Assembly (NCBI GenBank): GCA_012295275.1
Contig: CM022665.1
Coordinates: forward strand, 19,158,001 to 19,222,000
DNA: 64,000 nt
DNA from: Chrysomallon squamiferum
Lineage: Eukaryota; Animalia; Mollusca
Direction of reading: 5' to 3'
Notes under the pieces: generated by a model
Databases searched by the model: none
Told to the model about the DNA's origin: nothing
Seen by the model: only the letters and a program-made list of their open reading frames with translations
Position numbers and translations under genes: made by a program
In this document: piece by piece, positions 634 through 62,916 of the stretch
Position numbering within the stretch: the first letter of the stretch is position 1
Layout of the letters: each line of letters starts with the position of its first letter

Positions 634-839
634 TTAGCATGTTCCGGAAACACACGATTGTATAGTTTCGTCCCATACCGTCCCTGGTGAACAGTCGTGA
701 ACGTAAGCCTTTCCGTCAACACACTGGATAAACTGCCCACATTTATATCCTTGGTGATACGAGTGTCCGGTTGGAGAACATATAATTCCCTCCACACAGC
801 GATTGTTAAGAGTACTCCAGACAGCACCAGCCGCACATA
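634..839 (-). CDS. Exon 3 (terminal) of PAN-EGF-CBM14 protein: chitin-binding type 2 (peritrophin-A/CBM14) domain
   Basis: Acceptor tattttacag, phase 1; reads (I)CAAGAVWSTLNNRCVEGIICSPTGHSYHQGYKCGQFIQCVDGKAYVHDCSPGTVWDETIQSCVSGTC*; C-x12-C-x5-C-x9-C-x12-C-x4-C spacing with the PGTVWD motif; TAA at 636-634; AATAAA on minus strand at 576-571. Confidence 0.85.
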
Positions 840-980
840 CTGTAAAATACAGGTTCTTATATCATATTAAATGTTCAGTAATTGTTAACTAATTAAAACA
901 GTGAATTTTTATGTCTCTAATATAATTTTAATGTTTTACTGGATATTAACTATTCACTGAAATACAACAACAACAACAAC

Positions 981-1022
<42 letters not shown>

Positions 1023-1123
1023 CATAATCACAACAACAACAACAACTGTCTTTAATTTGACTTTTTCATAATCGCTTCACTTCGTTTTACTGTGTGTTTC
1101 TGTCTTTGTGTGTGTTTGTGAAT

Positions 1124-1124
<1 letters not shown>

Positions 1125-1184
<60 letters not shown>
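1125..1184. repeat. (CA)n microsatellite
   Basis: Perfect CA dinucleotide run. Confidence 0.95.
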
Positions 1185-1189
<5 letters not shown>

Positions 1190-1196
1190 GTACGTA

Positions 1197-1541
1197 CAGG
1201 GTGTCCACAATGTCTAGCCCCATATAACATTGATTTATTAATTAGTTTTCAGATAGTTACATTACGGCGGCTATATCAGAAGCTTACAATAACCTTTCAA
1301 GAACAATATTGGCGATAAACGATAACATGAACAAGATAACATTAAAAACAAATACTTCCATGCTTAGTTTAATACAAAGATCTGAGTTCATCGCGTTAGA
1401 AAATGGATATAAGTAAATGGATGTCATTTTGCCCATGTGGTGTAAACGATAAACTAACTGATAATTTATAAATTAAATTTATAAATCCTAATGGGTTTCT
1501 TCTATACTTTGGCAGCTGAGCCAGACTTTTGGATGTCTCTG
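1197..1541. mobile_element. Decayed Tc1/mariner-type MITE in intron 2 of the PAN-CBM14 gene
   Basis: Starts TA|CAGGGTGTCCACAATGTCTAG; ends CCAGACTTTTGGATGTCTCTG, an imperfect reverse complement. Confidence 0.4.
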
Positions 1542-1679
1542 CGTGTTTATGTGTATATATATATATATATATATCGTTTCATCTACCTATCACTATAAAT
1601 ATATATTTATCATACTCTGTTTATAAGTATCTCTCTGTATCAGTTTGCTTTTATTCATCTCTTCTTCTTTAATACTTAC

Positions 1680-1767
1680 TGATAGGAAAGCACTTGATGT
1701 TATTATGTACAGTGACACACATTTCATTATTTTCACAGCTGTTAAAGGTACAGGGTCCATAATCGCC
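1680..1767 (-). CDS. Exon 2 of PAN-EGF-CBM14 protein: 4-Cys EGF-like segment
   Basis: Acceptor tttactttcag, donor A|gtaagt; 88 nt reading GDYGPCTFNSCENNEMCVTVHNNIKCFPI; phase 0 in and phase 1 out match both neighbouring exons. Confidence 0.85.
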
Positions 1768-2569
1768 CTGAAAGTAAATAGGGAAACATTTTCATATATA
1801 TTTCTTTTTTCTATAACTGCTCGTTGAAGCATTTTGTAAAGTGTTTATTGTTATCATCATCATCATCAACATAATAATTATATTCATCATAACCATCATC
1901 ATCATCATAGCTTTTTTATTTGTTGTGAACGTTGTTATGACAGAGGAAATATTATACATTTATTTTTTTTTTTTTTTTTTTTTTTTTATACTTGGTCTTA
2001 TTATTCAGATAAATTTAACTAGGATGTAATAAATCTGGCTGGATGGTTAATCGATGATTCTCCGCCAGAGCTTTTTTTTGTTGTTGTTTTTTTTTGTTTT
2101 TTTTTTTGTTTGGCTAATCTACTGGCTAGTATACTGGTTTAACAATAATTTTGGTTTTACATTCCTTTAGATCGGTCATTTTAGAATTTTCTGGTACCAT
2201 AAAAAGTACCATGTAGTCGTACATATTCACGCTAAAAGAAGAAACTCGAGACCCCTGTCATAAATTACCGATTCGGACTGGTTTGAATCGATCTCAATCG
2301 TGACGTAACGGTCAACTGATTAAGACGTGACAGCTTCGTAGTGCGGCGTACTTAAGGGTTGAAAAAATACGACATTTGGCGGAGAACCAGCAATATCAAC
2401 CCAAATGTCCGTTAGAGTGTTCTCCGCCAGAGGATACTCGGGCTATCTTCGGAAAGGTTCAAAAAGTGTTTACTGGTCGTGCATGCATATCTAGTTTTCA
2501 TTTTCGAGTAAAAGTTAAAAATTAAGATAAAGATTTAAAAAAAAAAAAATGTACAAGTAACATACATAC

Positions 2570-2848
2570 GTTTTCATTAGATAGATTCACATAAACCGAG
2601 TTGCTTTTTGACATCAGATTGCCACCGTCGTTGCTGAAAAACAGTTCACATTCTCGTTTCTGTACTTCGTAGTTAAACGACGAACAAACCCCACTGGCAA
2701 AACACAGGCTGTAACACTGGTTGACGTTGCTCACCTTGTACACAATGTTTGGAGGTAAATCCATTGCTGCCTGTTTTACCTCTGAAGCCACAACAATTAA
2801 CGGAATGCACGAAATACAGATTAAACGGAAGGAAAGTAGAAAAGACAT
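2570..2848 (-). CDS. Exon 1 of secreted PAN/Apple-EGF-like-CBM14 protein: signal peptide + PAN/Apple domain (93 aa)
   Basis: ATG at 2848; hydrophobic N-terminus (MSFLLSFRLICISCIPLIVVA); PAN-type motif QCYSLCFASGVCSSFNYEVQKRECELF; phase-0 donor AAC|gtatgt at 2569. Confidence 0.85.
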
Positions 2849-4328
2849 ATTTCGCTTGGTTTCAAATGATTATTGTTCCTGTGGTTATAAATGTTCTGGG
2901 TTGAATTAAACTGTTAAAAGTAATATTCTTTATTGCATTTACAGAACATCAAACACATACTCTGAGGCGAAGACTTTAGCTATCGAATCTGTAAAAAAGA
3001 CTTTGAACAATGAATAATATATGCGGGTTTTAGAGGATAAGGATAAATTATAGAGTCACACGTAAGTTTCTTTGTAGCATATAATCAAATGAGGAAATAA
3101 AAAACAAAACCCAAGCATCAAAATAAAAATATATTACTGAAAGTCACCTTGACTTACGCATGTATAATACGTTTTCGTTCTGAAAGGATTTTTGTATTAT
3201 TGTCAACAGTTATAACAGATTAAAATATACAGGTTCTTTTTCTAAAGAATATTACTAGTAACTGCTGTAAATAGTGCAAGATGATAATACGATGTACAAA
3301 ACACTGCAGTAAACAATCTAACATTTGTTCATTTTTTAATTTTTTTAATTATTTATTTTTTTATCTCTCTATCTTTCTATCTATCAATCTGTCTATCTAT
3401 CAATCTGTCTATCTATGTTCTTATTTATTCTAATTAATGTAGTATATTTTAACATTTATAGAAAATGAATTAATAATATAAAGAAAAAAGGAATTGAAAA
3501 TTACAACTGCTGGAATCTTAGAACTTCAAGAATTATTTATTCTCAATAATTCATTATATTTCAAGAAAATAACAGTTTTCGAAGAATTATTTTGTACTTT
3601 AGAATTTAGCACTTTCGAAAACCAAAAGTGATACTTTTAAGAAATCCTTAGAAATTAAGAACAATTAGATGTGCTTAAAACAATTACCGTAGTCAAAGAA
3701 TCAGCTGAGGAAGTCTGAGATTTGGAAAAATTCACTTTTTAGCCGTTGTCAGTGACTTGGTTCAAACTACAAGTGTACCTGGTTAACGTTGGCTCCAAAT
3801 GATCGATTTTTCTTACAGTTTTAAGACCGTTAAATATGAACTGATGCAAAGAAAGTGAACATAAAGAAATACCACAGTGATTCGTGGTTTTGTTTTGAAG
3901 TGCAGTAAAACTAATGGGTGTGAATCAATAAAATGAGGAGTAGGCCTACCCGTTGTCCAGCGGAACACTTGAATAGAATCTAATCACAGGAACAAATCAG
4001 TTTTGCAGAATCTTTGCATCTCCGTTTCTTAAATAGTTTTAATGATTATATTACATCCAGTTATTTACTTTCTTTAAAATTATGAATGTTAAATTAGTGG
4101 ATCCAGCAGTTCATTAAAAGATATATGGCACCAGTGACCACTGCTAGTGTACCAGAGTATAAAATACCCTCATCTATTATTATGGGAAGAAATAAATACC
4201 TTTAAGAATTTCTGTAAATATTATTATTTTTTTATGCTTCTAAAGCAGATAATGCAGCACAAAGGCACATTAAACTGTAAGAAAACAAAACTGGTATTTG
4301 TTCTTTCTGGGGTTAAAATTTACTTTCG

Positions 4329-7699: not shown

Positions 7700-10170
7700 T
7701 GTAGGATTACAGTATGTAGAAGAATGTATTACAGATATATAATAAAAAAATTAATATGCACAAACTTTTAAAATATAAACATATTTTTGTGATTAAAAAA
7801 ATTATTATATGAAAATATATTTGGATATCTCATACATTTATCTGGTAAAACATTTATCACACTTAATAAAACAGGATCACTACATTCAAATATATTGAGG
7901 ATATTCATCTCCTATTTTGTCACAGTTACAAATATGACATTTTCTATTTTCTCTTAGAGCATTAAACCACTGTCCAGGTTTTACATGTACATAAAACATT
8001 AGCATTCTTTTCTGATAGTATTCTATTTTCTAATTTCAGTTCATTTTTGAAATTCTATAATTAACTGAGACATTTCAATTTCATTTTTACATATTTGTAA
8101 AAACTGATCCAGGAATACTTTTGATACCATTTCATGTAACAATTTAACGTTATCAAACTTGTGAAATGTCTTCTTTTTGTTCTCTTGTTGACTACAAGTC
8201 AAGGCCAGCAGTGACTATGAAAGATTCTGTTCTCTGTAGATCACTTCTTGTGTCATACAGCTTCTAAAAGAGTTGTTGTAGTTGTCCAGATAGTTTCCCT
8301 CAGCCACTGTAGATTTTTTGCAGTTATGGATGATATGTTCAGTCCATCTTTTCTGCTTTTCCACAGCAGCACTTGGAAGACGATACCATCCAGAACCTCT
8401 TATGCATATGCTGGTTGAGCCTGTTGTGTACCGTCCTTAATCAGAAAATGATGACTTGTTCATGGCAGCACAACAGGTAATAATCATAAATTTTGTTTGG
8501 GAAGTCTACAGAGGATTTAATGAGGATTGTCATCTCTTCGTATGTTACCCAGTTATCTTTCTGTTCATTACCTTCATCTAGTTTTGCCAGTCTGTTGGCA
8601 TTCTCATTTCTAGGTTTGCCACAGTGAGCTGGGATCCATCGTTTTATGACTTGGTTGACACTGCTGACAGGCTGTGGGGTTTGTTGTTTTCAAGAGCCTA
8701 AAGGGCAGAGACAGCATTTTTGTGGAAGATGACATGTAAGCAGTTCCATCTGATGCTTATAATGTTGGCAGCAAGAATGAGAGGCTCAACCTCTACAGCA
8801 AGTGTAGTGCAGTGTTTACCTGTAGGAATGTGCCTCCTCTTGTAGCCACTAGGGTCAATGATGTATGTTCCAGCTCCTCCCAAGGAGAATCCATAACATG
8901 TATTAAATAATACAACTTTTACCAACACTTTTTGAATATTACAAATTATGTTCCCCCAAAAATGTTATCACTTTTATTTTTACAGAAATGCAAAGGGAAT
9001 ACCATCCTAGTTCACCACAGACCACACAACCAGAGATACATTTATTAACAGAGTAAATTTTGCAAAATTTCATACAGTCTTTCCATTAATTGTACATTTG
9101 TAAAACCCCTTACTTCACAACCACACAATAAAAGTGATTGTACAAATTTGTCAAATAAATCATTTACACAGACAATGATGAGATTATTCAGGTGACTTTT
9201 ATCTATTATGATGTATGAAGCCTTCATTGCTTTATTATATAGATGTTTTACATGGTAATTAAATAAATTGTTTCTTGTAAAGTGTATGCCCACATATTTA
9301 TAGTTTTCAACTATATCAATAATCTTTAAATATATAATCATGGAGTTTTCTCCTTTAATTTTAAAATGTTAAGATTAAAATGTAAAACATCCAATGGTTC
9401 TGCTAACAGTATGGTATCGACAGCATATAGTGGATTAAAAAACTTTAAATAAACATTAAATTCTTCACTAAACATTGTTGTAATTGATTCTAGTCCATTT
9501 GTCTTATTAGCTGTAAGAAACTACTCTAGATCATTCAGAAAAATAGAAAATAGAAATGGTGAGATATTTTCTCCTTGCCTAATGATAATTTCACAATCAA
9601 AACTATCAGATAAACCATTCACTGTAATTCTTGCCTTTGCAGCTCCATACAAATTTACTAAAACATTCAAATAATTTCCATTTATATCAGATCTAATTAA
9701 CTTATTGGATAGTTCTTTTCTCAAGATTATATCAAATGCTTTCTCAAAATCTACTTTGTTCATTAAAATAATTAAGGAGTATAAAGAAAATATTTGGTCT
9801 GTTATGGAATAATTTTTCTGAAATCCAGATTAATTTTCTAAAAATCAGGTTTTTTTTCATCTGCATTCTTATTTAATCTAGAATTAAGTACATCGCAAAT
9901 AATTTACCAAAACAGCATAATAATATAATAGGTCTACAGATTTCAGGGTCATTTCAGGGGCCTTTATGTTTATATATTGGTTTAACCAACTATATGGTGT
10001 AACATTAAATAACAGTGCCTACAAAAATAGCATACAAATATTAAAAGTATTCTTAATATGTTCATTAATAATAAAGTCTTCTCCAGCTGATCAATTACAG
10101 TGGAGTCTGTGCATTGTTCTAGTTATTTCCTCTGCTTAAAATGGCTTGTTCAGAATATCATTAGTAGTTT
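7700..10170 (-). mobile_element. Decayed non-LTR retrotransposon (RTE-X/RTE-like reverse transcriptase), interrupted by a second LINE
   Basis: RT motifs VDFEKAFD...IRQGENISPFLFSIFLNDLE (9521-9763), degenerate YADD as LYAVDT (~9420), thumb region YKYVGIHF (9045-9341), C-terminal CICNCDKIGDE zinc-knuckle remnant (~7900); many stops and frameshifts. Boundaries approximate. Confidence 0.85.
8165..8895 (-). mobile_element. 5'-truncated RNase H-bearing LINE (I/Nimb/Ingi-like) nested in the RT element
   Basis: Minus strand reads WIPAHCGKPRNENANRLAK (RNase H motif, ~8580-8640), followed by a Cys-rich remnant and a GAA/A-rich tail; more GC-rich than its flanks. Confidence 0.75.
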
Positions 10171-21193: not shown

Positions 21194-22060
21194 GATGGAA
21201 GTCATAACATGTAACAAAGGTGGTGAGGAGTTAATTTTCATCTACACTAAACAGATAACTAAGCCTCATAACATAAGGTGGCGATGTGTACAACGCACTA
21301 CTGATTGTAAGGCAACCAACTCTAAGCACAACCTTGGTTAATGATGATCAAAGTTAGTTACACTCATAATCATGATCCATCGGAGACAAAAGTCGCAGCT
21401 GTCAAGTGCTGTTCTCATATGAAGCAGCACGCCAAGCAAAGTTTCGACAAGCCAAGCCAGATAGTAACTGAAGCCATGAGTCAAACTGATGTCACTGCCA
21501 GGGTTGAACTTGGCAGGTAAGAGTCAGTAAAACGTACCCTATGTAACCAAAGACTTGGCTGCATCCGTCTTCAACCTGAGTCTCTCTTCGAAATCTCGTC
21601 ATCGAGGGAAAGTGGGCGCTGACAACGGGACCTGATCCTCAACAGTTCCTCGTCTACGACAACGGTTAAGTCGCCGCCTCAGTGATCATCATATCTGGTG
21701 CCAGTGACGTTCTGCAACATCTGTCAACTGCCAAGACCTGGTTCATGGATGAGAACCATGCTATTGCTCCTCCCGGGTTCCGCCAGCTGTGTGTCTTGTG
21801 GGGAACACTACGATAACCTGCTACATACTATTGTCAACAAGTGTTCCAAATTGCACCAGCTGATCCTACCACTGTAGTCACACACTTTGATGGCGACCCT
21901 TGATGGCGAACAGCGTACTAACAATCTCTGCGAGGCATAGAATCATAGAATTGAACATTTGTGTGGTGTTTCTCGTCCTTCTGTGTGGAAACTAATTCAC
22001 CGGCTTCAAGCAGATGCTGCCCAAGTCAGTACAACTCTCCTCAACGCTCTCCTCCTCGCA
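21194..22060 (+). mobile_element. Decayed FLYWCH-MULE transposase
   Basis: MEVITCNKGG..LIF.Y......IRWRCVQR..DCKAT (FLYWCH), WFMDENHAIAPPGFRQL (first catalytic D region), RTNNLCEA*NHR...PSVWKLI (E region); stops and frameshifts. Confidence 0.85.
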
Positions 22061-23439
22061 AACATAGCAATCGTGTAAACACCAGTGTCGTCGTCATCAG
22101 TTACGTGTGGACGTGATGTGATTCTAAAACTGTATTCTAAACAATATATAATGAAAATAACATGTGATGAAGGCCGATTCCTTTTGAAAACCCCATCTGA
22201 CTGATACAATGAAGAAGATACTAATTTGATTTATACATACAGATTAATTCAGTTTCCTCTCTGTCTTTGTGTATTTCTCTGTGAACACTTAATCTTCACT
22301 AATACCTACACTCTCATTTTTCACTGAATATTTAAATGTTCCTGATTTTCAAAACAGAATTTCGGTCTTGACGGAACATGTAATTCTAACTGAGAAGCTT
22401 GAATAAAACATTAATACAAAAGTTTTAATTTCTGACGGCTGGTACTATAGTCACTCATGAACAGACTTCGACACAATATGAATCTCTCAAATAATCCCTA
22501 TTTTCTGGATTATCACACTTAATTTTTATTGTTTGTATTTCATTTTGTACTTTGATTGTTGATGCACCAAATTGTATAACGCTTTGTTAACGTATAACAC
22601 TACGTCAAGGGAGGTGCTCTGGTGCTGTCTGGTCTGTGATGAAAATGAATTCAAAGGTCTGATTGAAATTACAGAAATCAGAGATAAACAAAACACAAAT
22701 GTAGAAGTTAGTTATCTGTAATGGTCTCGTTTTTCAGTTTATATTATATTGTCTAAATACATTATTAAGACCAAATAAAAATAATTATTCAACATTATAA
22801 TAACAAGTAAAAGCAATTCACTAAATAAATTTCTTTAAAGAATTCATTGCTGAAAAAGATTTAGAGATTATAATATTGAAAAAAAGTAATAATAAAATTT
22901 AAAAATATAATATTTTGTATGCATATCCGGAAGATATTACCAACAGTATTGTATTAGACAAATTGTGCATGCATGTTTAGAAAATGTAATAATTACCCTC
23001 AAGTGAGATTTGTTTTACTGTATTTAGCCATGTTAAATGTGGCTAAACACTTTTGCTTAGAAATGTCTATTTTATGATGTATGTTTTGCGGCAGTTCAAT
23101 GCACAGTCTCTAGAACTACCTAGGAACTACAAAAGAATTATTTTTCAGTGTTTGTATCATGATGACATTTGTTAATCGCATTCCCTCGTTTTTCGCTTTA
23201 ATTCTCCTGTTTTACTTGCAGCGGAATAACGTAACAGTTACGAATTTAAAGATTAGTTACATAAGGAAAAAAATTGTTATTGGTTTCGATTACCTCTGGA
23301 AAATATTGATATTTTTTTATATTTTTCATCTTTTGCAATCGATATATAGTTACAATAGTCTATAATGTGTTTGCGTGCAATAAGCAGTAACATGCCTTTT
23401 TTTTCAGTGCCTATTAAAACTGATTTTTAAACTGTCTAA

Positions 23440-43097: not shown

Positions 43098-45102
43098 ACA
43101 TGAAAATGTATCCTGGAAGTATCAAAATCAACAGAAAAAGGGAAAAAATGTTTGTCTACAAATTTACCAAAGCATTTACGTACACGTATCGTTTACTTTG
43201 TTCATTGTTTTTCCTACTGTGTGAATAACGCATTATCTGTAAACAAATTAAAGCCATCTATAAAACGCTTTTGTTGATATAACTGAGAATTTGTAAAGAG
43301 GATTTTAATAATATACACAAATACCATATACAGAAGAAATTTATAACTAAAAATAGAAATAACCGTATTGCTTTAAACATTTTCAGTAACCAGCTTTTCA
43401 AAATGTCTCAGATGGTCTGTAGGAAAAAAAATTAGTATAGCTGATGGTTAATTTAAAGTCAGCTAAACCTTCTTCAACATAAAATTGGACATATCTCATT
43501 TAAATATTACTTTTTACTAATTCCCATTCCAATCCACTTCTAATTTATCAAAGACTGTTGTATGTGCTTGTCTGTCTATTGGAAGACATGCATTATAAAA
43601 ACCCATCCGGCTGACAAAAAAGAAAAAGAAGTTATCTCTGTAGGGTGTGTGTGTGTGTGGGTGTGTGGATGCGTGCGTGCTGTGGTATGTTCTGCCATAT
43701 AAACGTAGAATAAAAAATATGTTGAGGGCGTCGATAAAATACTTATAAACTGTTTAAAACTAATTTATTAAATTCATGAAATGTTAAAATTAGAAACCTT
43801 GGAGAAACGAGTTTAAAAAAATTCCTTCACGTTTTTAATTTCCGAATCTTGAAGATTTATTGACTGAAATTATAAATTAAATAAACATTATTTGAGTTCA
43901 GTTAATTTATACAGTAAATGATTTACAGGTTACTGAAATAATGATCTTTTATTTTCTGTTTCTATAATGATGGAGATATTGTCATCCACATTTTCTAATT
44001 TGTTAATTAATAATTATATATAAAGTTTTCTAGGAGTTTTCTCCCATCTCCTAACACGCACATTTTATTCTGTCAGACTTTATTTAAATACCTTTTTGAT
44101 CACAGACACGCTCACACACACACACACACGCACACACGTATGACGATTATGCATGTTCATATACATATTCTGAATATAATTCACAAAGCTGTTTAAAGAA
44201 TTACATGCATTTTAAGTAGTTAATAGTAAGATTATCGAAATAAAACCAGAATCAATCATCTGGAAAAATACAAACATGTATAATTTATTGGACGTTAAGT
44301 TTTATATCTTCGGTATTTGTTAACTCTTATTTTGTAATTCTGTATGAACGTTTCAGTTCAAAATTATAGCGAGGACATACTTTTCTAGAACTGTCTATTA
44401 CATTACAGACATCACTTATTTTTATCCATTATTCCTTATACACCAGAATACTGAAGGACTCTTAAATTTGAATTCCGTGAGACTAAGTGCAGTGTATGGA
44501 ACCTATGTTGTGATTGAAATTAATGAATAAAAAGAGTACTTACTGCATGTATCACTGGTGCAGTTGCAATTCTTGTCGCAAAGCGTTTTTGAAAGGACAG
44601 TTTAGTAGGTTTCCTATGCGTGTTATACTGAAATAAAAAAATTGCAATAAAATATACTTAAATGTTTTTAAGTGGAACAATTCATAAAGACAGGAAAGAG
44701 ATATTCATTGTTCCAAACATTTTGCTTTATACTCGGAGTTATGAAAACCGGTTTGAATTTTAAACATCAGAACAATTCTAAGAAAGTAGCATGCTGTGTA
44801 ATTGGGCAGTTATTTTTCTTTAGACGTCAGTAGAGTAATTTTCTCAGCAAATAAAGCTGTTACTGAGAATTTACACACGCACAGTTAAAAGGCTGACAGT
44901 CACTGTAAATACTGTTTATGCGATGGTTTTTCTGTAAACATGCAGTAGAAATTTCTCCTGGATTTAAAAGTCAACAATATTTAAATGTTTTAATAAACTG
45001 AATTTGTTCTTTTGATTGATAGAATTAATATATTTATTTTAGAATATTATTTATTTATTTATTTATTACTGTGTTGTTGTTGTTGTTGTTGTTGTCGTTG
45101 TA

Positions 45103-45165
<63 letters not shown>

Positions 45166-45170
45166 TTAGA

Positions 45171-45527
45171 ATGAATAGCAACATCGTTTTGGGTGTATTG
45201 CTCATCTCCTTCACTCTAGCCTACAGCTTCACCCTGTACGACGCCTGTTTCACCGAATGTCTCATCTGCATACAGACTTGGGGAAAGGACCTCTACAACG
45301 GAGGCAAATGTGCAGCGTCGTGCGAAGAGAGCAAAGGTAGAAGCATGGATCCAAAATGTGTGATGTTTATCAACAACACTAAACGGTCCCGTCAGACAAT
45401 GCTGTCGATTCCAGACTGTGTGAAGACGTGTTCGCGATGCACCAATAAGCAGGGTGGAAAGTCTGTGGATAAGTTAACTTGCTTCTTCATGTGTGCAGTG
45501 AAGCACGAGATTCCAGGTTCTTGTTAA
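45171..45527 (+). CDS. EH: Eclosion hormone-like neuropeptide precursor with two tandem EH-like domains (118 aa)
   Basis: Acceptor ttttag|A then ATG at 45171; signal peptide MNSNIVLGVLLISFTLAYS; domain 1 C-x3-C-x2-C-x13-C-x3-C-x11-C containing YNGGKCAASC..SKG; KR; domain 2 C-x3-C-x2-C-x13-C-x3-C-x9-C; TAA at 45525-45527; AATAAA at 45786-45791. Confidence 0.85.
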   Translation: MNSNIVLGVLLISFTLAYSFTLYDACFTECLICIQTWGKDLYNGGKCAASCEESKGRSMDPKCVMFINNTKRSRQTMLSIPDCVKTCSRCTNKQGGKSVDKLTCFFMCAVKHEIPGSC

Positions 45528-46404
45528 TCAGCGGCTGCGGACAAATTATCTTTATTTTGGTTTATAAGCCAAAACGAAAGTTAAGTTCCTGGATGAGAAA
45601 TTGAACAGCACGAGTAGACTAAATTAAAGAGCTTTACACAGATGAATAGTCGGTATTAGGATATTTAGATCTTTTTTTTTTTTTTTTTTTCAAAAGGAAT
45701 TCCAAAAATTTAGCCAGATCTATTTGAGCAAGATCTGTTTTCAAATGTATCATTTCATTTGTAACAATGTTTGTTTTCGAAATGTAATAAACTTTCACAT
45801 GGCCATTTCAGATTATAGTTACCTAAATTTCACATCCAAAAGACGAAAAAAAAAATCCAAAAACAAAAGGAAGACATTTCTTTTGTTTTCACCTGTAATA
45901 CGTTCCAAAAATACGTTTTTATAAAACGTATCACGTCATTGTTTTATTAAATAATTTCAGTGTAATGTCTCATAGTGAAATTTTATTTGGTTTGTACGCC
46001 TTTATTTGTTATAGAAAAATACTGTGACACATTATCAAAATGTTTATCCAACGCTTTCTCAGCAGTAATTAAATGATCAATTTGTCAAACTGTCACACAT
46101 GATGTCGACTGGCATTTTGCTAATTGTTGTATTGAGTTATGTTTCTTTTGCGTCATCATCATGTACAAGATTGCTTATGAAACTGTAGAAGCAAAACATT
46201 AATTATTTTCTTGTTAAATTATTATTTTTATTGTCATGGATTTTTCATTAAAAGATAACAAACCTATTAACTGACATGAGACACTTTAGTAAATCAGATT
46301 ATGCTATCCTTAAATGTTTAACGTTTGCAAAATCAACATATTTAATTAGTTAATTTACATTATTCAAAATTTTTTCAATTCATTATTTGCATTGCTTTAA
46401 CAAA

Positions 46405-54832: not shown

Positions 54833-56286
54833 AAGTAAAATAATGTACAGTTAACACTAATGGTTAAGAATCATCTTACAAGGATTTTTTTTTTTTAAAA
54901 AAAGGTGTGAAAAGCAACAACAACTAAACAAACAACAACAAAAGCAAAAGAGTTCAGTTTCTGTATTAAATTTAAAAGAAGTCTTCAAAAATATGTTGCC
55001 TATTCCTGTATTATAATGTATTATAATTCTGTCTTTTTTTTTTTTTTTTCTTTTTGTTATTATCATTATTATTATTATTATTATGATTAACTCGGCTAGA
55101 AAGAGGAAAGATGGCTTCATCATTAAACCAACTTTATCAAAAATTGGTGGATTATTTTTATAATGATAGAGAAAGGTATCACATATTTCAAAACACACTC
55201 TTGATTTTCTAGATGGTGAATTTTATATAGAAATGTTTTTCTGACCTTTTTCAGCATCCTTTAAATTCTTATCTGATAGAGATGAAGTTTAAGTTCATAA
55301 AATTAATGAGAGAATGATCTATTCATTTATATATGATCTATTGATGTGTATCAGTCAGTTTCATAGTGATCAGAGACAAATCTGAAAAGAAAAAGAAAAA
55401 GTGTCTCATGCTGTTGAGACATCTTGTATATCTTATAGGGTGTGTGTGTTTGTGTGTGTCTGTAAAATAAAGAATGAATATTACATAATGCAGGTTTTGT
55501 ACAGGTGAAACAAATTAAAGCCAAACTTGTAAATGTATTTACCAGTATATTTACTTTCTATCTCTGTCAACTGGTAATTGTGATAAGAAATCACAGCACA
55601 TAACAAAAATAATGCACAAAAGAACTGAAAATAACAACAACAAACAAACAAAATAATACAAACATTGCATCATCATAATAACAATAACAATAATAATTCC
55701 TCTGTTGTTGTACAGTGATCTGTAGACAATACCAATCCTTTTGGTTTAAAGCAAAATGTAGTAATCTGCACTGTTAATATTGTTTTAAATTATGAAAACA
55801 TAATTTGGCTTTATTGACAAAACACAGACACACATCTTATAGCTATTGAGACTAATTGTGTACTAAGTGAATTACGAATACATCATTTCTGAATTACAGG
55901 AAGTTGAAGTAATTATGTCCTTTATTTTGATGGGCTGTATTATTTGATTGTTTAATGGACTTTGATGGGAAAGTTAGAGCAAAAATGTTTTTAACAAGTC
56001 ACATTAATCATAGTGAAAGAATTTTGTTCATACTTTCTGCATTTTCTAATTTTTTAAATTAGACTGAATTATTTAATATTTGAAATGATACAGTTTGAAC
56101 AATAAAAAAAAAAACACTATTCATTATAATTCACTTGTGTACAGCTGTATTTAGTTTAATCTGTACATGTTAAAAATTCCAATTTATTTATTAAAAACCC
56201 TTTAAACTATAGTGTCCTCCAGAATTTTGGCTATGGAATAGTAATGATATAAAACTAGTAAATAATATGTTTGTGTTTATTTTCAG

Positions 56287-56377
56287 GATACAAAATCACA
56301 TGGTAACCAATTTGCTGCAGATGAAGATAAAGATAATGATGAGACAACTGAACTTCTGGTGAACAATATGAGTGAAC
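56287..56377 (+). CDS. FRMD8: FRMD8 putative acidic N-terminal exon (DTKSHGNQFAADEDKDNDETTELLVNNMSE)
   Basis: Acceptor tttattttcag, donor C|gtatgt; phase 0 to 1, exactly what is needed to join exon 1 to the exon at 59995. Confidence 0.65.
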
Positions 56378-56510
56378 GTATGTACACAAGGCACCTTACA
56401 CGTTAACATTTTTAAATGCATAAAAATATAAATATATATATATAAAACACTGAATGTATTATTATTTTCTGCTGGAATGTATCTAACATTATATGTCTGT
56501 AAATGAAATA

Positions 56511-57943
56511 CAGTCAAACTTCGATGAGTCAAACTAAATAGTTAGAGTTCTTCTGGGTGTTTTCCAGTTTTTTAATTTCAAATATTTACTGCATTCCTGA
56601 TTACTGAGTAATGTACATTTCAAATTTCGAGAAGCACATCTTTCATATTTAATAAAATAAGTAAATAACAAAATGAATAAGGAACAACTCAAAAGTATTA
56701 GACAAAAATATTCACACACCTACTCACATGCAAATATATTTATTGATATATAAAACTGCAAAACAGATGATACATACATGTACATTCATTACTGGAAAAA
56801 TAAACTGAAACACGTAATCAGTATGCAAGACAGTTAGTTTTTCTTTATGTTTTCCCTCCATGACAGTCTAGATCTTTAAATTCTAATGTTTTGTCAGGAA
56901 ATAGTCAGTAAAATATTCCAGCTTCATCTGCATTGTAGATGTCATATATGTCATATTTACAAAGAAATTGTTATAATTACTTATGCCATTCAGACATATC
57001 TGAATTGCATGTCAATTGGCCTTGCTTCACCACAAATCTGTTTAAATGCTATTCCATTGCTTTTCTTCAATTTATCCAGATATTGTGGCAAATTCCACAG
57101 CTTTTGTAAGTAATACTGACCTAGATATTGCAAGATTTTTATCCCTGGCATTTTTCAAAGTTGCAAGTTCTATGTTTGTAAATGCTCCTGTTCTCATGTT
57201 TTTAATCCATGTTGATGAAATATGTGAGGGGAAGTTGTTTCCCTTAGCAGTTTGTGTTTTAGTTTTTACACTTGCCTGCTCCTGCATTAATATTTTATAT
57301 TTTGTCTCAGTATTTTTCATAACAGACATTCTTTTCATGTATCTGCTTTCTCTTTCCAATGCAGCTATAGCCCATTGCTGGGACTTTCACCAGATTGCTT
57401 GGGTACCATGGACACAGAACTTTTATTAGTAACTGATCTGGCTATATCCCTGTTACCAGGTTCTTCTCCAGATTGTTTAGCTTTTGACATAATTTAATGA
57501 CTGCTAATTTGTAAATATTAACTGGTATTTATAAAACAGACAGCAGGTTTGACATTATACACGCATAAGTAAGCAAAACAAACATCAGTCAATGTAATTT
57601 ATCACTAAAAAAGTTCTTTGAAGTCTGTCTTCAGTTATGTAATATGCAAAGAAGCCCAGACAACCTAGGAAGGCATAATTCATTCCAGTTAATCACCCAT
57701 TGTTCACTATTTACCAGTGGAAACAATAGCATGATGATTCCAATATTTCAGTTTTCGAAGGCTAATTTTAATTAATCTGACACTGAAGTGCCTTTTGAGA
57801 AAGAGAGGTGTTCAACTTACAAGCATTTTATTATTTGAATGTCATTAGTACTGACTTATATAGGAACTCAGCCTGGACCAGACTTTCAGTTCAGTAGACC
57901 TATTATCTTGAGAAATCGATGATCAAATATCCAAGTTTGACTG
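56511..57943 (-). mobile_element. Decayed Tigger/pogo transposon with TIRs and TA target duplication
   Basis: TA|CAGTCAAACTT ... AAGTTTGACTG|TA; minus strand has CENP-B HTH (KNARDKNLAIS..LLTKAVEFA...FKQICGEA) and DIYNADEAGIFY*LFPDKTLEFK...CHGGK. Confidence 0.85.
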
Positions 57944-59739
57944 TATATATATATTTAAAATTAACCTTGTGTCTTAAGAAGGCAGCAGAACAAAATATTA
58001 GTAAGACTGTAATAGTACAGTTATTTTCATTTATTGTTTTCATGAAGCAAATTTTTTTTTAAAACTGCCAGAAGTGACATTTAATTTTCTTTTGAAATAT
58101 TAAAACCCTACCATAAAAAGCTGACTTCTAAAAGTAGATAAGAAATGGCCACCAAACAAATTTTAGAAAAATGCACAAGAGAAGTTCCAACAGACTTAAA
58201 AGTAATATTAAAAGAAGTATATATACCTTTATAAGTTTTTATTATTGTTATATAAAACTAATTGTGATTGCATAAAGTTGAAGAATAAATAATGATTATA
58301 ATAAAATACAAAAATGGAAATGAAGTAAAGTATTATCAATGAGTATTTATTTATGTATACTGTATTTTGCAAATAATTATAGAAGCAGTTTTATTATTAT
58401 ATTTTAAAAAAATAACATGTTAATATCAAAATTTAATTTTGTCATGCAGTCAAAGGCAAAAACAAGAGAGGTATATAATAGTGTATGTTCAGTGTGTGTA
58501 CTATATGTTTGTGTCTGGGGAAATGCATGTGCATTTGCTTGCTCATCTTTATTTTAAGATCTTTTGTACTTATTGCTGTTATTATTTTCTTTTTGTTATT
58601 ATTATTATTATTATTATTATTGTTATTTTATATAAATCTGTTTTTAAATTTCATACCTGTCATTATATCCTTCCATCTACTGATCATTAGAATTTATCTT
58701 TATGTTATTTTACAAAATATTTCAGAATTAATATTATTTAAAATAGCAAGTGATCAATGCTTATGCACTTACAAGTAACTTAGACATTCATTCAGTGTTA
58801 CACCAACCTACCCACACAAAAACATCTCCAACTCATATTTTCACATGTTTAAACATCCGTAGTTTGAACCATACATTATTGTTGTTATTGTTGTTGTAGT
58901 TGTAGTCTTACTGAAATCAATATTTCTTCATTTCAACTTTCAGATATATGCATAAAAATACACATACTCACCAACATAATATATATGGCATATATAAATG
59001 CATACATGGCACATACCTACCTGGTAGTTTAATAATATGAATGTTAGTGGTTGTCTGAGTGTTTAATAAATATTTCCTGCAAACAGCTTTGTTCTTAAAC
59101 TTTCTCTTCCTATTCCTCTTGTACCCCATCCTCTGTTGTATTTCACAGTCACTGTTTTATTTCTGGTAAATTTTAATTAATGTTTCACACTTGGAAATAT
59201 ATAGAAATAGAATATCTGATATAGACTGATATAAATTGATTAAATTTGAATCACTGATTGTTAAGTAATGTAGATATTGGATATTAAGTAACAGTTATAA
59301 AAGTAAGTGGTTTTTCATTTTGTACAAGTGTTTTTATAAATTGCAGATGAGTTTTTTTTTTATTGTTATTAATTAATTATTTTGGATTAAAATAAAATAG
59401 CATACATACATTCAGACATATATATGTACATATGGACATACATATACACATAATTTTTTATATCATCTATTACTACTTTTTATTTTATTTACTTTTTGAA
59501 AATGAAAAATTATTGTATTAATATTTCTTTTTATTATTATTATTTTTATTATTGTTTTCATTTTTGAATAAGCAAAATTTTTAAAAGTTATGTTACCTCT
59601 AAGAGTTTTCCTTTTATTAGATTACATATTTATTTATTTATTTATAAAGGAATGTTAATGTTGTTATCTCAGTCAGCAAGAATATTTTCCTTAATTGTAA
59701 TTTTAGTCTTACTTTCATTTTCTTTAAATAATTTCATCA

Positions 59740-59841
59740 AATAATAAAATTAGCAAATTTTCAATATTTAAAATATTGCTTACCAATTTTTCAATAATTT
59801 TCAAATAATAAAATTAGCAAATTTTCAATATTTAAAATATT
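59740..59841 (+). repeat. Short AT-rich direct duplication
   Basis: AAATAATAAAATTAGCAAATTTTCAATATTTAAAATATT present twice. Confidence 0.85.
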
Positions 59842-59994
59842 AAATTTTTAAATATTATTACTTTTGTATTAAATATTTAATATAATTATTGGTCTTTATA
59901 TATTAAAATATTATTACCTGTATATTAACTATTTAAAATAATAGTTATTATTATTTATATATTCAAAACAAATATGACCTGACATATATTTCAG

Positions 59995-60162
59995 TTGTTG
60001 AGATGGTGGTATACCTGCGTGATCGCAGTGGGGTTATGTTCAACTTGGAGGATGGTCACCTTGCCAGGGCTGATGAGCTGTTGGAGATGGTGTGTGAAGA
60101 ACAGGGACTCCCACAGGAAGCTCAGAAAGTCTTTGCCCTCTGGCTTGTGTCCAGTTTAATGG
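59995..60162 (+). CDS. FRMD8: FRMD8 exon, FERM F1 lobe
   Basis: (L)VEMVVYLRD...LPQEAQKVFALWLVSSLM matches FRMD8 VLVYLAD...LP..A.DVFALWLVSPLL; ag/gt, phase 1-1. Confidence 0.9.
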
Positions 60163-60728
60163 GTAAAAGAAACACTACTTATATATATATGCATGTTCAG
60201 ATTTAAACTTTAACATAATGTTATTAATGTTCCACATATTTATCCTTTGCATTTCATATTTTTATAGTTGAATTCTGGCAAATTGTTGACTCATTTGTAT
60301 TTGTATATATGTATTTCTAATGAGAAAGGACCACAAATCTTGTCATTAGCTTAATTATTATTATTATAATGAAATTCATTTCATCTTGATGTACCATCCA
60401 TCTTAAATCTTTTTGTCTTAAATTACCACTGGGAGAGAAACACAAAATATAATTTACATAAAAATGTGTTTTATTTCATTAGATTATCAGAAATAAAACA
60501 AGATTCAGGTATCATTAATACCAAATACTTTATGCACATGCACATCATAAATAAAATAGTTAAATAATAATAATAGAAAAAATATAAAATAAAAAAATAG
60601 TTAAATAAAATAATATAAAACTAAATAAAAAATGAAATGAAATGAAAAATAATAATAATACCGAAATATAAAATAGGTAATTTATTTTGGAATGTTTAAA
60701 TGTTTCTGTGGTTACTCCTTGGTTACAG

Positions 60729-60829
60729 ACCTACGTTTGAAAAACATCATCAACCCCACCAGATTGCTCAGAAATGGGATGAGCTGTGTGTTCTTTACAC
60801 AGATGCAAAGATGGACGAAATACAAGAAG
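60729..60829 (+). CDS. FRMD8: FRMD8 exon with apparent 1-nt deletion in an A-run
   Basis: DLRLK then HHQPHQIAQKWDELCVLYTDAKMDEIQE in a shifted frame; matches EVQLKPKHQPY...QW.ELL; exon is 101 nt where 102 is needed. Confidence 0.85.
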
Positions 60830-61166
60830 GTTTAATTTCTCCCATTATTTGAAATATTTTATTTCTCTAAATCCAGTAACTGAGAAAATATTAGTGAATT
60901 TAGACAGAACATGAAAAATGCAAAAATTTAAAAAAGAAAATTAAAAATCTTTTTATTTATTATTATTATTATTTTTTTTTTAATGTTTGATCTTAACTGT
61001 ATTTCTGTTTTTAATTTTTTACAAATATCAAAAGGATAGATTTTTTTAAAGGTGTCTAACATTACTTTTGTGATTTACAATATATTTACAGAGAATTTTT
61101 TGTTTTGATTTGATCTATATCTGAATTAAACAAATGTGATTAAAGTTTTAACTTTTTATTTCTTAG

Positions 61167-61225
61167 CTGAGCCTGTACTCATGGTTCAAAGGGATGTGTT
61201 CTACCCAAAAGATGAAGAAACACAG
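61167..61225 (+). CDS. FRMD8: FRMD8 exon ending at a GC donor
   Basis: AEPVLMVQRDVFYPKDEETQ matches DEPFLQFRRNVFFPKRRELQ; junction CAG|gcatga. Confidence 0.85.
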
Positions 61226-61693
61226 GCATGATATTGCACTTCTATGTTTGTACGTGTGAGCATGTATGTGTGTGTGTGTGTATGTTTGTGTACACACATG
61301 TGTAACAACCTACCCAGTTATCAGTATCTGAAATTTTGAAAATTAACAGTTTATTATAGTTTGTAACCTTAAATATGAAGGAAATGAATTTGAAAAATCC
61401 AGAGTGTACATGTTTTTGTGCATGTTTATCTCTGTTTGTGTGTGTGTGTGTGTGCATGTGTGTGTTTGTGAGTGTGCATCTGATAATGGATTTATGATGG
61501 AAAATTACAGTAGTGTCTGACTTTGTTATGTATTTTTGATTTGAAAGAGGCATTGGAAGTTCAAACTGTTAAAGTTCTAATTTCAAACAGATTCCAAAAT
61601 ATCATTTATCAAAAGAATTTATCAATAATGAATAGAAACCTAGGGTTGGAACAATACTTCTGATGCAGTGTCATATTTATTTATTTACTTCAG

Positions 61694-61860
61694 ATCAAAC
61701 ATGAGGAGATACTGTGTCTGCTGTATCATGAAGCTAAATACAATGTAATAGAAGGTAGATATCCACTGTACATTGAAGACTATCATCAGCTGGCAGGCTT
61801 GCAGGCTCTGATACACTTGGGTAAATACAACTCAAAGGAACATGTCTTACCTCAGTACAG
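61694..61860 (+). CDS. FRMD8: FRMD8 exon, FERM F2 lobe
   Basis: IKHEEILCLLYHEAKYNVIEGRYPLYIEDYHQLAGLQALIHLGKY...; ag/gt, phase 0-2. Confidence 0.92.
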
Positions 61861-62236
61861 GTAAATGCAAACCCAGGCAACTGCTTATGCAAACTGCCAT
61901 GTCCTCCCCTTTTTCACAGTTTTTATTTCAGGCATTCATGTGTTAGCATAATTATGATAACAGGAAAATAACATAGCTAAATTCTTTTGCAATTATTACT
62001 ATTTTAAAATTATTTTCTGCTCACTATATACTTTATTTGTAATCATTAGTTTTATATTTACTATAATGTAAGCAAGATTTAACATATCCTTAGGTTATTT
62101 TACAAATACTCATACGACACAAACTAATGATGTATCAGCATTAATAATACTTACAGTCATGTCAAAATAATCATAAATAAATTATTATACTTTACAATAG
62201 ATCTTATTAAAGGTATTTACTGTTTTTCCACTACAG

Positions 62237-62449
62237 AAGCAACTTGTTAAAGTTCTACCCAGAACATATGTACCAGCATAAAAAATTCCTGTTTTTTCCC
62301 AAGAAGTCTGAGGGTGCTCAGTGTGAGGAGTTGTTCCTGGACGCTCACAAAAGAGTGTCACAAGAATATGCTAATCTTGATCTCACTACCAGCATGTCTG
62401 TGCTGTATTACAAATACTTGGAAATTCTGTGGACATATCCATTTTATGG
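62237..62449 (+). CDS. FRMD8: FRMD8 exon, end of F2 lobe
   Basis: SNLLKFYPEHMY...YYKYLEILWTYPFYG; donor GG|gtgagc; phase 2-2. Confidence 0.92.
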
Positions 62450-62783
62450 GTGAGCTAACTCCCTAGGAATCTTAAAAAAAACCTCAACAAATCTTTATTT
62501 ATTTCAAAACATATTTGACTTGAGAAGCAGATAGAAAAGACAGATTGGTCTCTTTTTAATGAACATATTCAGAGAAAAATGGTTTATCATTATGATCCTT
62601 CGCAAACTGTACCTTGATTATAAAATGTAGCTGTATTTATTATATCTGTTTCAACTTTTCATGGAACAGTAACTTATTTTATAATGATCTTCTCAGTAAA
62701 AAAAAATCGTCTAGTTGTTAAATATTAATTCACAGAGTTTTTCATGTTCTTAATCACAGAATATTTATGTTTGTGCTTATCAG

Positions 62784-62916
62784 GAGTGCCTTCTTCTCAG
62801 GACAGGTAGAAACTCCAGCTCCACGCTGGATGAAGTTGATTCACGCACCTCCAGACACACAAGTCATTGTAGCAATCAACATGGACAGCATCAGCCTTAT
62901 TGATAAAGAGAAAGTG
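62784..62916 (+). CDS. FRMD8: FRMD8 exon, start of F3 lobe; gene continues beyond the window
   Basis: SAFFSGQVETPAPRW...VIVAINMDSISLIDKEKV matches CAFFHGEVDKPA...VSVAISLEGVHVID; donor gtaacc. Confidence 0.9.

What the first reader, a model, noticed from the sequence alone, without database searches (positions are those of the whole stretch)
45171..45527. Tandem two-domain eclosion-hormone-like precursor in an apparently non-moulting animal
Seen: signal peptide, then FTLYDACFTECLICIQTWGKDLYNGGKCAASCEESKGRSMDPKCVMFINNT, then KR-SR, then QTMLSIPDCVKTCSRCTNKQGGKSVDKLTCFFMCAVKHEIPGSC*. Both halves have the EH cysteine frame (C-x3-C-x2-C-x13-C-x3-C-x9/11-C). Known: insect EH (Manduca) is C-x3-C-x2-C-x12-C-x3-C-x10-C with FEGPLCAESC..FKG, is one peptide per precursor, and acts on a receptor guanylyl cyclase; EH-like genes have been reported outside arthropods. 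Inference: internal duplication gave a two-hormone precursor. Domain 1 keeps the EH surface motif (YNGGKCAASC..SKG); domain 2 keeps only the cysteines and IP..C and is more basic, so it may be a distinct ligand, modulator or antagonist. I cannot tell from here whether this architecture is already described.
Basis: partly seen in the sequence, partly recalled or inferred. Interest (0 to 1): 0.85.

Follow-up and report, generated by a model that had tools for sequence, protein, structure and literature searches.

The report
Snail two-domain eclosion-hormone precursor
This is an intact gene, likely from a snail, for a predicted secreted precursor with two eclosion-hormone-type cysteine domains; that layout is already published for oysters, so the only fresh feature is a strongly diverged second domain shared with a few unnamed relatives.

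Summary
The ORF is real and reads as described: signal peptide, six-cysteine domain 1, Lys-Arg, six-cysteine domain 2. Domain 1 is eclosion hormone (EH)-like (Pfam E 5.7e-5, 23.2 bits, just under the cut-off of 25). The animal is likely a gastropod: a neighbouring FRMD8 gene is 78% identical to that of Gigantopelta aegis. The architecture is not new. The oyster EH precursor was described in 2021 as holding two EH ligands split by a dibasic site (PMC8398477). Nine two-domain EH entries stand in a 2019 data file, and 26 of 36 EH-like relatives found here have two or more domains. What remains is a subtype of seven sequences whose domain 2 keeps the cysteines, ends on the last one, and has lost the conserved EH residues. 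Likely mechanism: convertase cleavage releases an EH that would act on a receptor guanylyl cyclase, plus a second peptide that is likely no full agonist there. Expression, cleavage and receptor action were not shown. Verdict: new member of a known kind, low interest.

The parts
45168..45169 (+). Likely splice acceptor (AG) one base upstream of the ATG; implies a non-coding upstream exon that was not located
   Evidence: sequence; no transcript seen
45171..45227 (+). Predicted signal peptide, residues 1-19
   Evidence: hydropathy 2.72 over residues 5-17; the mature start F-T-L-Y is shared with P0002 and P0009
45228..45380 (+). Domain 1, EH-like peptide, residues 20-70, six Cys, one N-glycosylation sequon at N68
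   Evidence: Pfam PF04736 E 5.7e-5, 23.2 bits; 57-65 bits against profiles of tandem EH domains, 0 of 200 Cys-fixed shuffles as high; predicted helices 22-37 and 44-53
45381..45392 (+). Predicted convertase site K71-R72, followed by S73-R74
   Evidence: KR in the linker of 21 of 26 two-domain relatives, any dibasic pair in 25 of 26
45393..45524 (+). Domain 2, diverged six-Cys peptide, residues 75-118, ending on Cys118
   Evidence: no Eclosion hit at E<=10; 26.7 bits against a leave-one-out profile of six similar second domains, 0 of 200 shuffles as high; predicted two helices
45786..45791 (+). Candidate polyadenylation signal AATAAA (common by chance in this AT-rich DNA)

Best explanation
The gene encodes a two-domain eclosion-hormone-family precursor of the molluscan tandem type, likely from a gastropod, that is predicted to be secreted and cut at Lys71-Arg72 into an EH-like peptide, which would signal through an EH-type receptor guanylyl cyclase, and a diverged second six-cysteine peptide that is likely not a full agonist of that receptor. 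Shown: the ORF, the two cysteine frames, the homology of domain 1, the shared architecture, and the loss of conserved EH residues in domain 2. Inferred from family knowledge: signal-peptide removal after Ser19, three disulfides per domain, convertase and carboxypeptidase processing, and a rise in cGMP in target cells. Inferred from comparison: an ancient internal duplication, after which domain 2 kept the helical disulfide scaffold but changed its surface in this subtype.
For: Domain 1: Pfam Eclosion E 5.7e-5. 36 of 37 scanned hits match Eclosion and 20 of the 36 pass the curated cut-off, including the closest relative P0002 (25.3 bits). P0002 aligns without gaps over all 118 residues at 36% identity. 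P0009, identical by eye to the Pinctada EH of PMC6660194 Figure 2-source data 3, aligns at 32% over 97 residues across signal peptide, domain 1, KR and the start of domain 2. Architecture: 26 of 36 relatives have two or more six-Cys domains; the oyster precursor is described with two EH ligands split by a dibasic site, and a peptide from the C-terminal region of oyster EH1 was seen by MS. EH receptors are reported in molluscs (PMC6660194). AlphaFold gives two helices for each domain. Domain 2 in the seven subtype members: 0, 0, 1 and 0 of 7 keep four EH motifs that 7 of 7 of their first domains keep.
Against: Domain 1 is 1.8 bits under the Pfam cut-off, and the Atlas hits to EH clusters (0.85-0.86) are leads only. 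Domain 2 has no Eclosion hit. Its similarity to EH domains beyond the cysteines is weak: 18.7 bits against first domains (0 of 200 shuffles) but 12.6 against second domains (40 of 200) and 17.2 against both (13 of 200); profile-profile probability 81%, 55% and 24%, with 1, 16 and 8 of 60 column shuffles as high. The oyster authors call their MS peptide possibly a non-specific product and did not detect the whole peptides. I found no paper that tests a molluscan EH on a receptor. Which EH residues bind the receptor was not established here, so 'not a full agonist' is inference.
Confidence: 0.72

Rival explanations
1. Domain 2 is a hormone in its own right: released at KR, it would act on another receptor or modulate the EH receptor, so the precursor yields two signals.
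For: Domain 2 is conserved beyond its cysteines within the subtype (leave-one-out 24.5-56.6 bits, 0 of 200 shuffles in each of 7). P0002 keeps the L-x-C-[FI]-F-x-C and E-[IL]-P-x-x-C ends. The seven second domains form one side of a branch at 100/97.
Against: With P0001 and P0002 both left out, the signal drops to 12.5 and 8.8 bits (3 and 4 of 200 shuffles). Charge is not conserved. The grouping rests on long branches and I picked the members by their cysteine spacing. Their first domains do not form a supported clade (3 changes; one clade not rejected, p-AU 0.10).
Confidence: 0.3
2. Domain 2 is a structural companion: a pro-domain that helps folding, sorting or storage of domain 1, or the precursor stays uncut and acts as one two-lobed ligand.
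For: Cysteines and helices are kept while the surface drifts. In P0008, P0011 and P0016 the linker is 65-70 residues long, and several relatives carry only a degenerate tail.
Against: A dibasic site is kept in 25 of 26 two-domain relatives, which favours separation. Single-domain EHs of cephalopods and an annelid exist without any such partner.
Confidence: 0.25
3. The product is an EH-derived exocrine or peripheral peptide (mucus, gonad, defence) and not a neurohormone.
For: Oyster EH transcripts are mainly in female gonad, mantle and digestive gland, and are also detected in ganglia. An EH-like peptide is reported from wasp venom (PMC13311285).
Against: One copy only in the window. The Toxin_13 Pfam match is at chance level (E 0.5). 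Domain 1 is conserved as in ordinary molluscan EHs.
Confidence: 0.1
4. The ORF is a silent or decaying copy.
For: Nothing positive; no transcript has been examined.
Against: Intact frame, all 12 cysteines, signal peptide, KR site, coding-like GC and a gap-free full-length relative.
Confidence: 0.03

Closest known systems
Crassostrea gigas Cragi-EH precursor (LOC105340619; PMC8398477)
   Same: One precursor with two six-Cys EH-type peptides split by a dibasic site, and low identity between the two (24% in oyster).
   Different: In the oyster alignment the second peptide looks the more EH-like one (by eye). Here domain 1 is canonical, and domain 2 has a 9-residue last loop, lacks the conserved motifs and ends on Cys.
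Tandem EH entries of PMC6660194 Figure 2-source data 3 (Pinctada, Ennucula, Nucula, Dreissena, Gadila, Lineus)
   Same: Signal peptide, two EH domains, mostly a KR linker. The Pinctada protein aligns at 32% over 97 residues.
   Different: None of the nine two-domain entries ends on the last cysteine (by eye). The gastropod entries there (Aplysia, Lottia) are a single-domain paralogue. The main text holds neither 'tandem' nor 'two copies'.
Arthropod eclosion hormone (Pfam PF04736; Manduca EH)
   Same: Cysteine rhythm 3-2-12-3-10 against 3-2-13-3-11 here, and the aromatic-x-G-x-x-C-A-x-x-C...K-G segment.
   Different: One peptide per precursor, a role in ecdysis and a tested receptor (PMC5627052). 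None of that is shown for this gene.
Unnamed relative P0002 and subtype members P0008, P0011, P0014, P0016, P0030
   Same: Canonical domain 1 plus a domain 2 with a C-x9-C end at the C-terminus.
   Different: Linker length (16-70 residues) and charge vary. Their species could not be determined.

Membership tests
Eclosion hormone family (PF04736) | Secreted precursor with signal peptide | tested here: met
   hydropathy and cleavage-site pattern; shared mature start with relatives; no dedicated predictor run
Eclosion hormone family (PF04736) | Six cysteines in EH spacing | tested here: met
   3-2-13-3-11 and 3-2-13-3-9
Eclosion hormone family (PF04736) | Significant sequence similarity of domain 1 to EHs | tested here: met
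   Pfam E 5.7e-5 but 23.2 bits, under the cut-off of 25; 20 of 36 relatives pass it; E 6e-13 (pairwise) to the published Pinctada EH
Eclosion hormone family (PF04736) | Similarity of domain 2 to EHs beyond the cysteines | tested here: inconclusive
   no Pfam Eclosion hit; weak and mixed profile scores
Eclosion hormone family (PF04736) | Three intramolecular disulfides per peptide | not testable with these tools
   the models give helices only; pairing was not read out
Eclosion hormone family (PF04736) | Activates an EH-type receptor guanylyl cyclase | not testable with these tools
   needs a cGMP assay; receptor orthologues are reported in molluscs; no genome was held in which to look for it
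Molluscan tandem EH precursor (Cragi-EH type) | Two six-Cys domains separated by a dibasic site in one precursor | tested here: met
Molluscan tandem EH precursor (Cragi-EH type) | Molluscan host | tested here: met
   seven FRMD8 exons, 261 of 336 residues identical to Gigantopelta aegis; one comparator only
Opioid precursors (PF01160) | Cys-rich N-terminal domain above the cut-off, followed by enkephalin motifs (motif recalled) | tested here: not met
   domain 2 scores 18.5 bits against a cut-off of 23.5; no enkephalin motif in the 118 residues; 0 of 36 relatives hit the family at E<=0.1
CHH/ITP family | Match to the family profile | tested here: not met
   no such Pfam family listed at E<=10 for the whole protein or either domain

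The most novel reading that the evidence does not exclude
One branch of molluscan tandem EH genes has turned the second domain into a new peptide hormone. It has its own conserved surface, is released together with a canonical EH, and acts on a different receptor or as a built-in brake on the EH receptor guanylyl cyclase. It would be an agonist-plus-modulator pair from one precursor, in a signalling system with no tested function outside arthropods in the papers I found.
Probability: 0.25. Interest if true: 0.5.

Novelty: new member of a known kind. Interest (0 to 1): 0.22.

Why it matters
It adds a likely gastropod member to the tandem EH precursors described from oyster and deposited for other bivalves, a scaphopod and a nemertean. 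It also points to a subtype with a reshaped second domain that I did not find described (searches; most subscription papers are not in the library). What EH does in animals that do not moult is open, and this precursor gives a natural pair (canonical against diverged peptide) for a receptor assay. It does not change the known distribution or architecture of the family.

Tried and rejected
Expression: no RNA holder listed, and nothing was laid on the exon from the four runs offered; neither result says anything on expression. No genome was held, so paralogues and the receptor gene could not be sought. Word-index protein search with the ORF: no candidate; with alignment A1: 2 hits among 2427 candidates, both already known and unnamed. 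Solved structures: no sequence match below E 0.3, no Foldseek match at E<=0.001, best VIA-align Z 3.6 for the whole model and 3.2 for domain 2; all uninformative. The low pTM of the full model (0.49) was not used as evidence. Rows dropped before counting: P0024 (repetitive, no Eclosion match) and P0028 (4049 aa, neither fetched nor scanned). Rejected: an opioid precursor, a CHH/ITP peptide, a toxin-family reading (E 0.5), basic charge as a trait of domain 2, and a second EH copy in the window (none outside 45100-45600 at E<=0.05). Zieger et al. 2021 was not held and is known only as cited in PMC8398477. Earlier scan findings: none returned.

Full report
Observation. It has a hydrophobic N-terminus, cysteines at 26, 30, 33, 47, 51, 63 and at 83, 87, 90, 104, 108, 118, and a single dibasic pair, K71-R72. 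It is 46.8% GC in 27-28% flanks. The EH cysteine pattern occurs twice in the window, both times here, against 0 times in 100 local shuffles. The coding sequence is one exon behind a likely splice acceptor.

Host. An exon near 62.2 kb found one protein among 3 candidates, FRMD8 of the gastropod Gigantopelta aegis. That protein matches seven exons between 56284 and 62916 at 66-90% identity, 261 of 336 residues in all. The animal is therefore likely a gastropod. With one comparator I cannot place it more closely.

Family. Domain 1 matches Pfam Eclosion at E 5.7e-5 (23.2 bits, cut-off 25); domain 2 does not match it at E<=10. A phmmer search of 1.84 billion representatives gave 38 hits. I scanned 37 of them: 36 match Eclosion and 20 of those pass the cut-off. 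The closest, P0002, aligns without gaps over 118 residues at 36%. P0009 is by eye identical to the Pinctada fucata EH in the eLife data file and aligns with the query at 32% over 97 residues.

Architecture. Of the 36 relatives, 26 carry two or more six-cysteine domains; 21 of the 26 have KR in the linker and 25 have some dibasic pair. [quoted passage not shown] Its transcripts are mainly in female gonad, mantle and digestive gland. In PMC6660194 Figure 2-source data 3 (parts 6 and 7 of 400 read) I count by eye nine two-domain entries, from Ennucula, Nucula, Pinctada, Dreissena, Gadila and the nemertean Lineus; the Octopus, Idiosepius and Capitella entries have one domain.

What is particular. 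Seven sequences (the query, P0002, P0008, P0011, P0014, P0016, P0030) have a second domain with a nine-residue last loop that ends the protein. Four motifs kept in 7 of 7 of their first domains are kept in 0, 0, 1 and 0 of 7 second domains; in the 20 other tandem precursors 11, 10, 18 and 20 second domains keep them. I chose these motifs by eye from the alignments. The query's domain 1 scores 57-65 bits against profiles of those 20 precursors, its domain 2 only 12.6-18.7 (0, 40 and 13 of 200 cysteine-fixed shuffles as high). Profile-profile comparison of the seven second domains with ordinary first domains gives probability 81% (1 of 60 shuffles as high), but only 55% and 24% against the other two sets (16 and 8 of 60). 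Descent from an EH domain is likely from position, cysteine rhythm and the predicted two-helix fold, but sequence support is thin. The seven second domains resemble each other beyond the cysteines (0 of 200 shuffles in each leave-one-out test, weaker when P0001 and P0002 are both removed) and form one side of a branch at 100/97. Against this, branches are long, the alignment has 45 columns, I selected the members by spacing, and their first domains are not a supported clade (p-AU 0.10). Net charge of domain 2 ranges from -3 to +3. None of the nine published two-domain entries is of this kind (by eye). The species of the six relatives are unknown.

Mechanism. Most likely the signal peptide is removed after Ser19, each domain closes three disulfides, and a convertase cuts after Lys71-Arg72. 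Domain 1 (F20-T70) would bind an EH-type receptor guanylyl cyclase and raise cGMP, as insect EH does (PMC5627052 passages); such receptors are reported in molluscs (PMC6660194, parts 1-3 of 7 read). Domain 2 would be co-released and, having lost the residues that EH domains share, is likely not a full agonist. It may be a separate ligand or modulator (0.3) or a folding or storage companion (0.25). Only the anatomy and homology are shown. Processing, receptor and physiological role are inferred, and expression was not examined with usable data.

Literature seen. PMC8398477: one section whole, passages, supplement passages. PMC6660194: as above, plus term searches. PMC6425005: one passage, a supplement search and one part of file 3, which repeats several tandem entries. 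PMC5627052, PMC9793003, PMC13311285, PMC12207360, PMC11641175: passages only. The two large supplement archives were cut when stored, and figures are not held, so a description of the diverged subtype could lie in unseen material or in subscription papers such as Zieger et al. 2021 (not held).

Verdict. A real and well-formed gene, correctly spotted. It is a new member of a known kind: EH in molluscs and the tandem precursor are both published. Interest 0.22, carried by the diverged second domain.

Noticed in passing
window 45393-45524 (+): The best Pfam match of domain 2 is the vertebrate opioid-precursor cysteine domain (PF01160, E 0.0021, 18.5 bits, cut-off 23.5). Synthetic human synenkephalin 1-53 is helix-rich with Cys2-Cys28 and Cys6-Cys24 pairs, I-V/II-IV/III-VI (PMC12207360); I recall the same pairing for Manduca EH but could not confirm it. 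0 of 36 relatives hit PF01160, so this may be cysteine rhythm only. A shared origin of EH and synenkephalin domains is a lead worth one profile comparison; a search for the pairing of terms listed 3 reviews, not read for this point.
   Followed up: partly
window 56284-62916 (+): FRMD8-like gene, seven exons matched to Gigantopelta aegis P0040; the 3' part was not matched within the window.
   Followed up: partly
window 637-2869 (-): Exons with a PAN domain (2525-2869, E 2.2e-7) and a chitin-binding CBM_14 domain (637-861, E 6.2e-12), probably one secreted protein gene that runs off the window's left end.
   Followed up: no
window 8444-9829 (-): Broken LINE-type remnants: reverse transcriptase (E 7e-7) and a weak RNase H match.
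   Followed up: no
window 21326-22075 (+): GC-rich broken frames that look like a transposase remnant by eye; no Pfam match at E<=0.05.
   Followed up: partly
proteins P0012, P0025, P0035, P0023, P0027, P0029: Other EH layouts among the hits: three domains (P0012), two domains with linkers over 100 residues (P0025, P0035), and a single domain with an extra adjacent cysteine and a cysteine near the C-terminus (P0023, P0027, P0029; similar Dreissena entries). Molluscan-type EH precursors vary in domain number.
   Followed up: no
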